A stretch of 64,000 nt of DNA from Octopus sinensis (lineage: Eukaryota): NCBI RefSeq assembly GCF_006345805.1, contig NC_043001.1, positions 85,560,001-85,624,000 of the forward strand, in the 5' to 3' direction. The notes under the pieces were generated by a model. It did not search any database. It worked only from the letters and a program-made list of their open reading frames with translations, and had not been told where the DNA came from. Shown here piece by piece: positions 7,480 to 55,461 of this stretch. A program made the translations under genes and the position numbers. Each line of letters begins with the position of its first letter. The stretch's first letter is position 1.

Positions 7480-7517
<38 letters not shown>

Positions 7518-7739
7518 AATCAATATAGGGAGGCAAAAAAATTTTGTAGAATTCTTTTTGCCCCCAGCGGCCTAGTGGGAAAGAATTAAATAGTCATAAA
7601 CCATTTTCAAGTTCAATATCACAATCAAGGACGGCCATAATAGGCCATTCACCACTAGAAATAACAGCCAAAAGCTTCAACCGCAAAGTAACATTAATTC
7701 TGTAAACCAGGAGAAAATTAAAAAAACATTTACCCTGAA

Positions 7740-7844
7740 ATTCCTTATACGATGCACCGTTTCGTCTACTGTTTAGTGGTAAACTAACCTGATTAAATTA
7801 AATAAGCCAATCTACCATAGGCCCTTAGATTCATCAGTAAGAAT
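7740..7844 (-). ncRNA. Type I hammerhead ribozyme in the inverted arm (1-nt deletion in stem I 5' strand)
   Basis: TCATCAG at 7831-7837 and TTTCG/GATGCACCG/TTCCTTATAC on plus are the reverse complement of the motif. Confidence 0.75.
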
Positions 7845-8772
7845 AGCCAATCGGAACAGATATTTTTCACGAGGCATTCACGTCCATGCCTCGCCAATAT
7901 CTGACCTAAAATTTTCAAGTCGTCGCACTCGCGCCAAATTTATCGGCAGCAAATAAATATAAGCCGCCGATTCCATTACGGAACTAAACCAGAAAATTCA
8001 TAATTAATCAATATAGGGAGGCAAAAAAATTTTGTAGAATTCTTTTGCCCCCAGCGGCCTAGTGGGAAAGAATTAAATAGTCATAAACCATTTTCAAGTT
8101 CAATATCACAATCAAGGAACGGCCATAATAGGCCATTCACCCACTAGAAATAACAGCCAAAAAGCTTCAACCGCAAAGTAACATTAATTCTGTAACCAGG
8201 AGAAAATTAAAAAAACATTTACCCTGAAATTCCTTATACGATGCACCCGTTCGTCTACTGTTTAATGGTAAACTAACCTGATTAAATAAATCAAGCCAAT
8301 CTACCATAGGCCTATGGTAGATTGGCTTGATTTAATTTAATCAGGTTAGTTTTTACATTACAGTAGACGAAACGGTGCATCGTATAGGAATTTCAGGGTA
8401 AATGTTTTTTAATTTTCTCCTGGTTTACAGAATTAATGTTACTTTGCGGTTGAAGCTTTTTGGCTGTTATTTCTAGTGGGTGAATGGCCTATTATGGCCG
8501 TTCTTGATTGTGATATTGAACTTGAAAATGGTTTATGACTATTTAATTCTTTCCCACTAGGCCGCTGGGGCCAAAGAATTCTACAAAATTTTTTTGCCTC
8601 CCTATATTGATTAATTATGAATTTTCTGGTTAGTTCCGTAATGGAATCGGCGGCTTATAGTTATTTGCTGCCGATAAATTTGGCGCGAGTGCGACGATTT
8701 GAAAATTTTAGGTCAGATATTGGCGAGGCATGGACGTGAATGCCTCGTGAAAAAATCTGTTCCGATTTGGCT

Positions 8773-8877
8773 ATTCCTTACTGATGAATCTAAGGGCCTA
8801 TGGTAGATTGGCTTGATTTATTTAATCAGGTTAGTTTACCATTAAACAGTAGACGAAACGGTGCATCGTAAAGGAAT
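8773..8877 (+). ncRNA. Type I hammerhead ribozyme (1-nt deletion in stem I 3' strand)
   Basis: CTGATGA 8781-8787, GAAA 8855-8858, GUA 8868-8870. Confidence 0.75.
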
Positions 8878-9260
8878 TTCAGGGTAAATGTTTTTTTAAT
8901 TTTCTCCTGGTTTACAGAATTAATGTTACTTTGCGGTTGAAGCTTTTTGGCTTTATTTCTAGTGGGTGAATGGCCTATTATGGCCGTTCCTTGATTGTGA
9001 TATTGAACTTGAAAATGGTTTATGACTATTTAATTCTTTCCCACTAGGCCGCTGGGGGCAAAAGAATTCTACAAAATTTTTTTGCCTCCCTATATTGATT
9101 AATTATGAATTTTCTGGTTAGTTCCGTAATGGAATCGGCGGCTTATATTTATTGCTGCCGATAAATTTGGCGCGAGTGCGACGATTTGAAAATTTTAGGT
9201 CAGATATTGGCGAGGCATGGACGTGAATGCCTCGTGAAAAATATCTGTTCCGATTTGGCT

Positions 9261-9367
9261 ATTCCTTACTGATGAATCTAAGGGCCTATGGTAGATTGGC
9301 TTGATTTAATTAATCAGGTTAGTTTACCATTAACACAGTAGACGAAACGGTGCATCGTATAAGGAAT
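9261..9367 (+). ncRNA. Type I hammerhead ribozyme (intact copy)
   Basis: Stem I ATTCCTTA/TAAGGAAT; CTGATGA 9269-9275; stem II TCTA/TAGA enclosing a long hairpin; GAAA 9344-9347; stem III CGGTGCATCG; GUA triplet, cleavage after 9359. Confidence 0.85.
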
Positions 9368-9747
9368 TTCAGGGTAAATGTTTTTTTAATTTTCTCCTGG
9401 TTTACAGAATTAATGTTACTGTTGCGGTTGAAGCTTTTTGGCTGTTATTTCTAGTGGGTGAATGGCCTATTATGGCCGTTCCTTGATTGTGATATTGAAC
9501 TTGAAAATGGTTTATGACTATTAATTCTTTCCCACTAGGCCGCTGGGGGCAAAAGAATTCTACAAAATTTTTTGCCTCCCTATATTGATTAATTATGAAT
9601 TTTGGGTAGTTCGTAATGAATCGGCGGCTTATATATTTATTTGCTGCCGATAAATTTGGCGCGAGTGCGACGATTTGAAAATTTTAGGTCAGATATTGGA
9701 GGCATGGACGTGAATGCCTCGTGAAAAATATCTGTTCCGATTTGGCT

Positions 9748-9854
9748 ATTCCTTACTGATGAATCTAAGGGCCTATGGTAGATTGGCTTGATTTAATTTA
9801 ATCAGGTTAGTTTACCATTAAAACATAGACGAAACGGTGCATCGTATAAGGAAT
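9748..9854 (+). ncRNA. Type I hammerhead ribozyme (intact copy)
   Basis: Same fold; CTGATGA 9756-9762, GAAA 9831-9834, GUA 9844-9846. Confidence 0.85.
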
Positions 9855-11511
9855 TTCAGGGTAAATGTTTTTTAATTTTCTCCTGGTTTACAGAATTAAT
9901 GTTACTTTGTCGGTTGAAGCTTTTTGGCTGTTATTTCTAGTGGGTGAATGGCCTATTATGGCCGTTCCTTGATTGTGATATATATATATATATATATCAT
10001 AAGACGGTCTTTCACGCAAGATACTGGGCATTGAGATTGCACCAGAAACCGTTATGCAAACTGAGTTTCTCAACCACACAGTTATTGCCAGTATTGTCCT
10101 GCAAAATATCCTTTTTTCTAGAGATCTATGAGATGTTTCACTTGCTGACGTGTTCCAAACGCTAACTTAAAATCTATTATGTTTTTGTCCTGCTACTGCA
10201 GCGACCTCTCCGAAATTAAAAAATATTTTCAATCGCTGCCCACGTTCAAATGATTCAACTACCTTGCCTCCTTCATCACCCTACTTTGTCTCATAGATTG
10301 AAATTTTTATAAAACACTTTGCATAATTCTTTTGAACAGAGGAAACACACATTCATTAGATATATCCCTGGAGCACCAACCTATATAGGTTCAGGTTAAA
10401 CATCAATCACTTCTACCTCATTAGACTTGGCACTAGTGAAAACGTTACCGTGATTGCCCGTCTTCATCTTTACATTGTGTAAAAATTATATTAAAGATAT
10501 TTATCATATAGACTGAGTAATGGTGAATGTAAATTAATTTCATTCTGACAGTAATAGTGATTCTATACTCATGTCAGATCAAATGATTTTGGCATAGTAA
10601 AACTTCCAAAATATCGATATTTAACACTGGAACAAGACCAAGCATTTTAATGTCGATGGTGGGGATTGCAGAGTCGATAAAATTGACCCATTACAAAGTA
10701 TTTTTCCCAGAAGAATCGAAAGTAAATTTAACTTTGATGCAAATGCAAACTCTACGGAGTCTTCCATTCAACCACATCGAACCGTAAAATATTTTCATCA
10801 TTCTACCTGTCTATCTACCTGGCCTGCTGTCTCCATTCTTTCTTCCCTATTCAAATAACTATTTACATTTCAACCATGCCATTTAGATTTCTGGCAAAAT
10901 TTCTCTATGTTACTTACCAATATTGGTTTTAAATTTTGGCACAAGGTCAGCAATTTCGGGGATGGGGGGGGGGTGACTCGACCTTCATGGAATATGAAAT
11001 CAAAACGTAAAAACGGATGAAATGCCTCTAAGCATTTTGTCCGGCGTGCTGCCGATTTTACTAGCTTAGTTATTTATCAATACTGATTTCTTTCTTTTGT
11101 TTTTTTGTATATTTTTTCTCTTTTGGCAATATTACTCATCATATTTTATGATCACAAATTCAAATATCTTACATATAGAACGTATACTTATATACACATA
11201 AACGTATGCATACGTACCTACAATTATACATACATACACACATACATACATATATATATATATATATGTATGTATACATATAGGCGCAGGTGTGGTATGT
11301 AATTCGCTTCCCAACAGCATTTTTCCGCGTTCAGTCCCATTGCATAACACCTTGGGCGATTGTCTTTTTCTATAAGCACGGGCCGACCAGAGATTCGTGA
11401 GTGCATTCATTAGACGGAAACTGAAAATATCCCCTATTATATGTAATAATATATATATTATATATATATATATATATAATATATATATATATATAATATA
11501 TATATATATAT

Positions 11512-50229: not shown

Positions 50230-51375
50230 AAGCTGACGAGCTGGCAGAAACGTTAGCACGCCGGGCGAAATGCATAGCAGTATGAGTTCAAATTCCGCCG
50301 AGGTCGACTTTGCCTTTCATCCTTTCGGGGTCGATTAAATAAGTACCAGTTACGCACTGGGGTCGATATGATCGACTTAATCCGTTTGCCTGTCCTTGTT
50401 TGTCCTCTCTGTGTTTGGCCCCTTAGGGGTAGTAAAGAAATAGGTATTTCGTCTGCCGCTACGTTCTGAGTTCAAATTCCGCCAAAGTCGACTCTGCCTT
50501 TCATCCTTTCGGGGTCGATTAAATAAGTACCAGTTACGCACTGGGGTGAATATAATCGACTTAATCCGTTTGTCTGTCCTTGTTAGTCTTCTCTGTATTT
50601 AGCTCCTTGTGGGTAGTAAAGAAATAGATATTTCGTCTGCCGCTACGTTCTGAGTTCAAATTCCGCCAAGGTCGACTTCGCCTTTAATCCTTTCGGAGTC
50701 GATTAAATAGGTACCAGTTACGCACTGGGGTCGATGTAATCGACTTAATCCGTTTGTCTGTCCTTGTTTGTCCTCTCTGTGATTGACCCCTTGTGGGTAG
50801 TAAAGAAATAGGCATTTCGTCTGCTGCTACGTTCTGAGTTCAAATTCCGTCGAGATCGACTTCACCTTTAATCCTTTCGCAGTTGATTAAATAGGTACCA
50901 GTTACGCACTGGGGTAGATGTAATCGATTTAATCCGTTTGTCTGTCCTTGTTTGCCCCCTCTATGTTTAGCCCTTTATGGACAATAAAGAAATAAGAAAC
51001 GTTAGCACGCCGGGTGAAATGCTTAGCAGTATTTTGACTGTCGCTACGTTCTGAGTTCAAATTCCGCCGAGGTCGACTCCATCTTTCATCCTTTCGGGGT
51101 CGATAAATTAAGTACCAGTTTACGCAGTGGGGTCGATATAATCGACTTTATCCGTTTGTCTGTCCTTGTTTGTCCTCTCTGTGCTTAGCCCCTTGTGTGT
51201 AGTAAAGAAATAGGTATTTCGTCTGTCTTTACGTTCTCAGTTCAAATTCCAGCGACGTCGACTTTGCTGTTCATCTTTTCGGGGTCGATAAAATAAGTAC
51301 TCGTTGCGTTCTGGGGGCGATCCAATCGATTGGCCCCCTTCCCAAAAATTTCGGGCATTGTGCCTTGTGTAGAAA
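50230..51375 (+). repeat. Head-to-tail multimer of SINE family B (six units)
   Basis: B-box AGTTCAAATTCC motif at ~50284, 50468, 50652, 50836, 51053, 51238 (periods 184, 184, 184, 217, 185). Confidence 0.9.
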
Positions 51376-51553: not shown

Positions 51554-51598
<45 letters not shown>

Positions 51599-51600
<2 letters not shown>

Positions 51601-51958
51601 TCTCAAACATATAAGGGATGGCTATAATAGAACATTCGACTCACTAGAAAGAGCAGCTAAACTCCAAACCACTAATAGTTGTAATTCTGAAATGGAAAGA
51701 GAAATAAAAACGTTTACCCTTTCCTTTCTGGACTATGCATAGTTTCGGCAATCCTTTGTAAATAAATTAAATTAAATTAAATTTATTTACGACTGGCGTT
51801 GCACTAATCAGCAGAAAATCCAAGGACTACCATATATTCACGAGGCGATAACGAGCATGCCTCGAGTCTATATGCTATACATTTTCAAAATCCACCGCAT
51901 TCGCACGGTTACTCAGCAGTAAATTTTCTAGAATTTTTTGCTACCCTAAAATTTATTA

Positions 51959-52004
<46 letters not shown>

Positions 52005-52361
52005 CTCTCAAACATATAAGGGATGGCTATAATAGAACATTCGACTCACTAGAAAGAGCAGCTAAACTCCAAACCACTAATAGTTGTAATTCTGAAATGG
52101 AAAGAGAAATAAAAACGTTTACCCTTTCCTTTCTGGACTATGCATAGTTTCGGCAATCCTTTGTAAATAAATTAAATTAAATTAAATTTATTTACGACTG
52201 GCGTTGCACTAATCAGCAGAAAATCCAAGGACTACCATATATTCACGAGGCGATAACGAGCATGCCTCGAGTCTATATGCTATACATTTTCAAAATCCAC
52301 CGCATTCGCACGGTTTACTCAGCAGTAAATTTTCTAGAATTTTTTGCTACCCTAAAATTTA

Positions 52362-52366
<5 letters not shown>
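51599..52366 (-). mobile_element. Two near-identical ~362-bp copies (51599-51960, 52004-52366) of a divergent relative of the 488-bp element, each with a hammerhead fold (51725-51817, 52130-52222) carrying G8>U
   Basis: Colinear blocks shared with the 7.5-10 kb unit (CACTAGAAA..CAGC.AAA, AATTCTG, TTTACCCT, TCACGAGGC..ATGCCTCG); minus strand TTTCTG-CTGATTA-...-GAAA-CTATGCATAG-TC-CAGAAA; inside (TA)n. Confidence 0.75.
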
Positions 52367-52401
<35 letters not shown>

Positions 52402-54841: not shown

Positions 54842-55461
54842 CGTACATATACATACAACAGTAGTTGAAACTGCGCTTGCGCGGTGAATTTGAAAAATTA
54901 TAATGTATAACAAGGAGACACGTGTTATCTGACTCTTAATTATATGTTAGTATTATGGTTCGATCACTGATGAAAGTTTCGCCTAGAAAATTATTTCATT
55001 TGCTAAAAACTTTTGAAACCTATGTTTGACAGGAATAAAATAAGGCAAAAGTCTTTTGTTTCATTCTCTTTAAAAATCACTCTTAAATGTGGTTTTGGTT
55101 GTTTTGACTACTTCTTCTAGAGTGTAAACCTGCTTGTTGAAGGCAGTTTCTCTTGTGCTTAAACGTACACTACTTTACACACTTATAAATAAGGGCAAAG
55201 GAAAAATATTTTAATGCCAAATATTAACAAAATTATCATCGAAAAGAAAAGTTAGTTAGAAACGTTGATACTATCATCTCCGGTACATCCTACTACATTA
55301 TATGTACCTTCAGAGGATTCCCTAGAAAATAGATTGAAGCAATTACTAAGATAAAGGTCGTAATCTTTAAATTTTAATTTTAAATTCGGTATCATTTTCA
55401 TGCCGTCATCTCTGACGGCACAGGGACACTAGTGATGATGACAATAATAATTACAATACTG

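What the first reader, a model, noticed from the sequence alone, without database searches (positions are those of the whole stretch)
51599..52366. Divergent sister family of the 488-bp element gives natural covariation for the hammerhead fold; these copies carry G8>U
Seen: colinear with the 488-bp unit, but the helices differ in sequence while staying paired. Stem I is UUUCUG/CAGAAA versus AUUCCUUA/UAAGGAAU. Stem II is GCAA/UUGC versus UCUA/UAGA. The inner hairpin is GUAAAUAAAUU/AAUUUAUUUAC. Stem III is the perfect palindrome ACUAUGCAUAGU with a GUC triplet. The CGAGGC...GCCUCG hairpin upstream is also kept. The core reads CUGAUUA. Established: G8 pairs with C3 and is catalytically required; palindromic stem III supports dimeric cleavage. 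Inference: an old, diversified structured-RNA superfamily, with these two copies probably inactive.
Basis: partly seen in the sequence, partly recalled or inferred. Interest (0 to 1): 0.75.

Follow-up and report, generated by a model that had tools for sequence, protein, structure and literature searches.

The report
Decayed copy of Penelope-mobilised hammerhead retrozyme
This stretch is one mutated, locally duplicated insertion of a non-coding jumping repeat that carries a hammerhead RNA motif (predicted to self-cut) and is likely pasted into TA microsatellites by Penelope-type retrotransposon enzymes; the kind is known, and these two copies are probably dead.

Summary
Observation confirmed. 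Both minus-strand copies carry a type I hammerhead fold and are homologous to the 488-bp element (65% identity; score 387, best of 500 shuffles 182). G8>U is private: an exact genome-wide pattern gives G8 in 74 of 78 matches and U8 only in these two. They are one 5'-truncated, 5'-inverted insertion duplicated between (TA)n tracts. The element is a ~465-nt non-coding unit in a superfamily of at least seven subfamilies (58-92% identity among those aligned). Stems I and III covary (7 of 10 pairs), and stem III stays a palindrome in four different perfect spellings. Insertions end at two fixed sites, and 54 of 57 classifiable inverted insertions have one of each end: the Penelope pseudo-LTR/'tail' signature. 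It is best filed as a non-LTR retrozyme, a known class. No ORF-bearing parent was found; cleavage and circles are untested. Side results: some amplified subfamilies carry fixed non-canonical cores (U4C; A.C or A.A at 10.1-11.1), and 9 of 14 sister-family arrays carry array-wide variants, suggesting a monomer (circle) template. The scan reported this class before on other DNA, in this and other genomes.

The parts
51556..51599 (.). (TA)n target tract, left
51600..51924 (-). Copy 1, sense arm: 5'-truncated retrozyme unit (unit positions about 94-429) ending at the 'short' fixed 3' end
   Evidence: (BLAST of full unit from L007)
51841..51864 (-). Upstream hairpin CGAGGC.../...GCCUCG, kept across subfamilies
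51725..51817 (-). Type I hammerhead fold, copy 1: stem I 51817-51812/51730-51725; core 51811-51805 with private G8>U at 51806; stem II with AU inner hairpin 51790-51758; GAAA; palindromic stem III 51743-51732; predicted cleavage after C17 at 51731
51921..51958 (+). Copy 1, inverted short arm (unit positions about 11-50) ending at the 'long' fixed 3' end (Penelope-type tail)
51959..52004 (.). (TA)n tract between the duplicated copies
52005..52330 (-). Copy 2, sense arm; same breakpoints and same substitutions as copy 1
52130..52222 (-). Hammerhead fold, copy 2 (U8 at 52211; predicted cleavage after 52136)
52327..52364 (+). Copy 2, inverted short arm (tail end)
52365..52401 (.). (TA)n target tract, right
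7513..9981 (.). Sister family A (488-bp unit): two-armed insertion, minus arm about 7513-8313 and plus arm about 8308-9981, flanked by (TA)n
54866..55170 (+). Old degenerate relative of the same superfamily (weak)
   Evidence: nhmmer E 9e-6 and 1.2e-5; covariance model only E 0.23

Best explanation
The two copies are one decayed, locally duplicated insertion of a protein-free, ~465-nt hammerhead-bearing repeat (a non-LTR retrozyme) that is likely copied into (TA)n microsatellites in trans by a Penelope-like element (PLE) protein. Shown: dispersed family, no ORF, hammerhead covariation, TA targets, two fixed 3' ends, variable 5' truncation, inverted arms pairing one short with one long end, and a G8>U private to this locus. 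Inferred: tandem transcripts self-cleave at GUC, probably helped by the 12-bp stem III palindrome pairing between two units; monomers are probably ligated into circles; a PLE endonuclease nicks both strands of a TA tract, and each strand primes reverse transcription at one of two AU-rich internal sites about 140 and 230 nt downstream of the cut site, giving back-to-back arms that may run past the cut site and round the unit more than once. After insertion this copy drifted (5 private substitutions in 322 nt, G8>U among them) and was probably duplicated by exchange between its flanking TA tracts. It likely no longer cleaves, and it no longer holds a complete unit.
For: Family census: G8 in 74 of 78 exact matches, U8 in 2 (this locus), A8 in 2. 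86 of 96 readable cores among 106 fetched core regions are CUGANGA (partly selected on the core). Covariation over 21 hand-picked representatives: 96% of cells paired vs 81+-1.4% shuffled, 7 of 10 pairs with changes on both sides, slid controls 25-49%. A model built without subfamilies E and J finds them at E 6e-12 to about 0.02. 3' ends: 106 of 117 family-B segments fall in two classes, and 86 of 117 are followed by TA-rich sequence. Inverted junctions: 54 short+long, 2 long+long, 1 short+short among 57 classifiable of 76 (the window duplicate is counted twice). This matches the PLE tail 'only on one end' (PMC8557442) and two internal RT start sites (PMC11167929). 89 of 117 B segments cross the cut site and 31 exceed one unit, so the template was not a single pass over a linear cut monomer. 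In sister family A, 9 of 14 multi-unit arrays carry substitutions shared by all units, three of them across both arms. Neptune-type and Hydra-type PLE ORFs exist in the genome. One locus joins a B unit directly to a PLE 3' end at a short microhomology (L022).
Against: No ORF-bearing element with this unit as its pseudo-LTR was found: no contiguous case in 227 element loci searched with Neptune-type and one Hydra-type ORF, and no pLTR-level homology in the Neptune or Hydra loci tested. 5' truncation points are not enriched at the cut site (3-4 of 117 B starts within 5 nt, about 3 expected), so there is no genomic footprint of cleavage. For PAc, cleavage was not needed for insertion in vitro. 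The hammerhead fold is not the predicted minimum-energy fold for most subfamilies; it lies 0-7.5 kcal/mol above it. The tail here (about 86-100 nt) is longer than the 30-40 bp described. Some amplified subfamilies have non-canonical cores. L022 could equally be a deletion between neighbouring insertions.
Confidence: 0.82

Rival explanations
1. Same Penelope-mobilised element, but the template is an uncleaved linear multimeric transcript; the hammerhead is a protein-assisted or relaxed passenger (or an RNA scaffold) and circles play no part.
For: No 5'-end enrichment at the cut site. Cleavage was dispensable for PAc insertion in vitro. U4C or mismatched 10.1-11.1 pairs are fixed in subfamilies that still amplified. 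Only 1 of 9 Xenopus retrozyme dimers cleaved in vitro.
Against: C3, G5, A6, A9, GAAA, U16 and the UGCA loop are invariant in 21 representatives, with G8 changed only in the window row. Array-wide, mostly private variants in 9 of 14 family-A arrays favour a monomer bottleneck.
Confidence: 0.25
2. A satellite or minisatellite expanded at the DNA level (unequal exchange, rolling-circle DNA element), with a hammerhead-like relic.
For: Tandem arrays; local duplications through TA tracts do occur (this locus; L026/L027).
Against: Dispersal over many chromosomes, fixed 3' ends with random 5' truncation, the short+long rule in 54 of 57 inversions, and covariation across subfamilies 58-92% alike.
Confidence: 0.04
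3. G8>U is a functional core variant, or these two copies are domesticated.
For: Both copies share it.
Against: They share it because they are one duplicated insertion. There is no compensating change at C3. It is 1 of 5 private substitutions in 322 nt, at the same rate as in other copies (1.6% vs about 1.8%); rare changes hit core columns no less than other columns (7 in 11 vs 144 in 312), and 6 of 26 copies have some core change.
Confidence: 0.03
4. The doubling (two copies 405 bp apart) is an assembly artefact rather than a real local duplication.
For: The copies differ by a single indel and are bounded by long TA tracts; no laid contig spans the locus.
Against: Similar TA-bounded duplications with shared breakpoints but differing bases occur elsewhere (L026/L027).
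Confidence: 0.15

Closest known systems
Metazoan non-LTR retrozymes (Cervera and de la Pena 2020, PMC7229834; Li, Clavereau and Pollet 2026, bioRxiv 10.64898/2026.07.22.740005)
   Same: Non-coding, low-GC (32-38%) tandem units with one type I hammerhead each; monomers, dimers and multimers; co-occur with PLEs; proposed circular template.
   Different: Unit 465-495 nt (above the 150-450 bp first described, within the 51-972 bp of Li et al.). Stem II is enlarged by an AU hairpin, and stem III is a 12-nt palindrome rather than 1-2 bp. No parent pLTR was found here, whereas 24 of 57 Xenopus families matched known TEs, nearly all PLEs.
Penelope-like elements, pseudo-LTR and tail (Craig et al. 2021, PMC8557442; Frangieh et al. 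2024, PMC11167929; Cervera and de la Pena 2014, PMC4209133)
   Same: 5' truncation, partial tandems, inverted 5'-truncated arm, extension at one end only, (TA)n targets (Neptune, Hydra, Naiad), palindromic stem III, extra nucleotide near 10.1 in some subfamilies.
   Different: No ORF. Tail about 86-100 nt rather than 30-40 bp. The hammerhead is not minimal. No homology to the pLTRs of the Neptune- or Hydra-type elements sampled in this genome.
Non-autonomous Chlamys elements such as MRC1 (PMC8557442, passage)
   Same: Non-autonomous PLE derivatives forming pLTRs and multicopy head-to-tail insertions.
   Different: Those resemble their autonomous partner at the 3' end and mostly lack hammerheads; green algae.

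Membership tests
Type I hammerhead ribozyme | Core C3 U4 G5 A6 N7 G8 A9 ... G12 A13 A14 A15.1 ... U16.1 H17 | tested here: met
   Met by family B (74 of 78 exact matches with G8).
Type I hammerhead ribozyme | C3-G8 pair intact in the two window copies | tested here: not met
   U at position 8 with C3 unchanged. The copies are mutant members, not intact ribozymes.
Type I hammerhead ribozyme | Three helices supported by covariation, ends joined in stem I | tested here: met
   Stems I and III: 7 of 10 pairs change on both sides. Stem II was read by eye only, because MAFFT misregisters its bulges.
Type I hammerhead ribozyme | Self-cleavage | not testable with these tools
   No enrichment of 5' ends at the site; contigs cannot show RNA ends.
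Non-LTR retrozyme | Non-coding tandem unit of a few hundred bp with a hammerhead in each unit | tested here: met
   133 cut-to-cut units of 440-520 nt across overlapping loci; no PLE-like ORF in units. The window locus itself holds only truncated units.
Non-LTR retrozyme | Expressed as linear and circular monomer RNA | tested here: inconclusive
   No holder on record as RNA; guessed-RNA contigs give only fragments. Array-wide variants are indirect support.
PLE-mobilised element | 5' truncation, tandem and inverted arms, tail on one end, microsatellite target | tested here: met
   54 of 57 classifiable inversions have one short and one long end.
PLE-mobilised element | Homology to the pLTR of an autonomous PLE | tested here: inconclusive
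   None found among the sampled Neptune- and Hydra-type loci; sampling was partial (30 of 150 listed GIY-YIG hits plus 7 fetched; 43 Hydra-motif hits), and Naiad and Poseidon families were not surveyed.
Autonomous PLE | RT + GIY-YIG ORF | tested here: not met
   No such ORF in or contiguous with the unit.

The most novel reading that the evidence does not exclude
The conserved 12-bp stem III palindrome dimerises the element RNA so that a dimeric PLE protein primes the two target strands on two linked RNAs, one at each fixed start site. This would explain the near-strict short+long pairing of arms. The hammerhead fold would then serve as a dimerisation scaffold as much as a cutter, which is why subfamilies with U4C or mismatched 10.1-11.1 pairs kept amplifying.
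Probability: 0.12. Interest if true: 0.75.

Novelty: new member of a known kind. Interest (0 to 1): 0.38.

Why it matters
The two copies themselves are ordinary decay. The superfamily is useful as a natural mutagenesis panel. Seven or more amplified subfamilies show which hammerhead features selection keeps (C3, G5, A6, G8, A9, GAAA, a palindromic stem III) and which it relaxes (U4, the 10.1-11.1 pair, stem II length). Its insertions give a large genomic record of the poorly understood Penelope integration step (two start sites, one per arm) and of a possible circular template, both testable with existing in vitro PLE assays.

Tried and rejected
Rfam: no hammerhead family among the 150 rows shown of 195 for the window, nor in the focused scan. 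Conserved splice acceptor 35 nt after the cut site (UUUCAG in B, UUACAG in A): rejected, because C and D subfamilies lack the AG. PLE ORFs next to family copies (L099, L098, L024) are separate insertions behind TA tracts; L114 and L136 lie over 1.5 kb away; L124, L202, L208, L231 and L233 were not read base by base. Neptune- and Hydra-type 3' UTR hammerheads are not hit by the model. By-eye likenesses to Hydra-1_Obim (9-nt stem III as in subfamily J; AGGGTA...CTGATTTA downstream in L295) had no nhmmer support and remain a lead only. Cleavage footprint at 5' ends: not found; starts at position 1-2 in families A and D are artefacts of query length; 2 E-family inversions break at the cut site (L208, L226), which is not significant. 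Whole-unit folding z-scores of -3.2 to -6.1 are not strand-specific (antisense -2.0 to -5.8; 25 shuffles). The RNAalifold circle consensus (116 pairs, 30 with compensatory types) had no shuffle control and did not contain hammerhead stem I. Expression: no RNA holder listed; guessed-RNA contigs are uninformative. DNA contigs neither span the locus nor test U8. Luense et al. (PMC5785218) is not held; the dimer claim is cited through a review.

Full report
Observation. The sequence at 51599-52366 holds two near-identical 360-bp copies between (TA)n tracts. The unit (family B) aligns colinearly with the 488-bp family A: 311 of 482 columns identical, score 387 against a maximum of 182 in 500 dinucleotide shuffles. 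Rfam names no hammerhead family here.

G8>U is private decay. An exact pattern over genome G000 gave G at position 8 in 74 matches, U in 2 (the window's two) and A in 2. Among 26 copies chosen by overall similarity, 20 have an intact core. The window copy has 5 private substitutions in 322 nt, and rare changes are no scarcer in core columns (7 in 11) than elsewhere (144 in 312). Against the full 465-nt unit, each window copy is positions 94-429 plus an inverted piece 11-50, with the same breakpoints. So this is one insertion, later doubled; an assembly artefact is not excluded. Inactivity is inferred from the C3-G8 pair (PMC3088659 section 8; PMC11167929, where G8C and C3G abolished cleavage). 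The subfamily's bulged U and the private changes also put the hammerhead fold 7.5 kcal/mol above the predicted minimum, against 0.6 for a bulge-free B copy.

Superfamily. Patterns excluding typical A and B copies gave 288 matches (1 in the reversed control) and 71 matches; a few are point variants of B. A motif from laid contigs gave family E (164 matches), and a profile hit led to the older family J. Sixteen aligned full units are 58-92% identical between subfamilies. Stem III reads ACUAUGCAUAGU (B), ACAAUGCAUUGU (C), ACGUUGCAACGU (D) and ACGGUGCACCGU (A'), all perfect palindromes; A and E have G.U versions, and J has a 9-nt version. On 21 representatives hand-picked from 62 signature groups, stems I and III are 96% paired against 81+-1.4% shuffled, 7 of 10 pairs change on both sides (25 of 500 shuffles reach that count), and slid controls give 25-49%. 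The structure was derived from these related sequences, so the held-out test matters more: a covariance model from them finds E (E 6e-12 to 1e-7 for the main hits) and J (3e-5 to 0.02), and none of the 7 other loci given. Stem II, read by eye, also varies while paired (GGCAA/UUGCC, GACG/CGUC, GGUGU/ACACC, GUGU/ACAC, UCUA/UAGA). Its closing 10.1-11.1 position is G-C, A-U, A.C or A.A depending on subfamily, and U4C occurs in 14 of the 30 loci. U4C and a U.U mismatch at 10.1-11.1 are known natural variants. The palindrome is predicted far more stable as a duplex (-15 to -23 kcal/mol) than as a hairpin (0 to -2.9). That fits dimeric cleavage as described for PLE hammerheads (PMC4209133, PMC6765202) but does not prove it.

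Insertion signature. 106 of 117 B segments end in one of two windows, about 140 or 230 nt after the cut site, and 86 of 117 run into TA-rich sequence; 5' starts are scattered and not enriched at the cut site. Of 76 inverted junctions across families, 57 had both ends classifiable: 54 short+long, 2 long+long, 1 short+short. The other 19 had an end outside both classes, many of them arrays longer than the query; the window duplicate counts twice. This is the PLE pattern of a tail at one end (PMC8557442), traced to two internal RT start sites (PMC11167929), but with a longer tail. 89 of 117 B segments cross the cut site and 31 exceed one unit. In family A, 9 of 14 multi-unit arrays carry substitutions in all their units, mostly private to the array, and 5 do not. 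This favours repeated copying of one monomer, as from a circle, but later homogenisation or uniform source arrays are not excluded.

Partner. The genome holds Neptune-type ORFs (RT plus C-terminal GIY-YIG with an upstream cysteine linker; the clade label is my reading of the motif) and Hydra-type ORFs (43 motif matches). None of those tested carries this unit as its pLTR, and none is contiguous with it in 227 element loci, apart from the L022 chimera. Mobilisation in trans is therefore inferred from the footprint, not from homology.

Comparison with what is known. It works like, and meets the testable criteria of, a metazoan non-LTR retrozyme mobilised by PLEs. Searches for a description in this animal group listed none by title or abstract; an octopus repeat annotation has no occurrence of 'ribozyme' in its main text (PMC13282606). 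Repeat libraries and bioRxiv supplements could not be seen and may already hold the family. The genome is inferred to be an octopus from its size, from recalled repeat features and from the likeness of L295 to the published Hydra-1_Obim hammerhead row. Papers seen: bioRxiv 2026.07.22.740005, parts 1-3 of 5; PMC4209133 and PMC11167929, parts 1-2 of 4; PMC7229834, passages and Discussion; PMC3088659, passages and section 8; PMC8557442 and its preprint, passages and supplement rows; PMC6765202 and PMC13282606, passages. Earlier scan notes describe the same class and the two-end rule on other DNA; I had obtained both before reading them, and they are not independent evidence.

Verdict. Real, well supported, known kind. 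The flagged copies are ordinary mutants; the value lies in the subfamily panel and the integration footprint.

Noticed in passing
window 54866-55170 (+): Old, degenerate third member of the superfamily in this window, with a worn hammerhead.
   Followed up: partly
L022:2110-2690 (G000:C6:38789490-38790070): A family-B unit breaks just before the GAAA box and continues, at a short microhomology, into a Neptune-type PLE endonuclease end and 3' UTR: template switch or deletion.
   Followed up: partly
L087, L071, L072, L085, L086 and others, 560-930 nt after the ORF stop: The abundant Neptune-type family has a minimal hammerhead-like motif with the U3-A8 core variant and a palindromic stem III.
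   Followed up: no
L284 / L314 (G000:C5:89685800-89690143, minus strand): Hydra-type PLE with a 634-codon open frame and a 3' hammerhead-like motif whose core has U4C.
   Followed up: partly
L320:3480-4410: Two-armed, TA-bounded non-coding element with a hammerhead-like motif (G8A in this copy) and weak likeness to the unit; possibly a deeper branch.
   Followed up: no
L208 and L226: Two family-E inversions whose arms both begin within about 4 nt of the predicted cut site; not significant on present numbers.
   Followed up: partly
window 50283-50994: Tandem array of about 4 copies of a 184-bp dispersed repeat just left of the finding.
   Followed up: no
window 7513-9981: All three plus-arm units of the family-A array share three substitutions not seen in the other arrays sampled.
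   Followed up: yes
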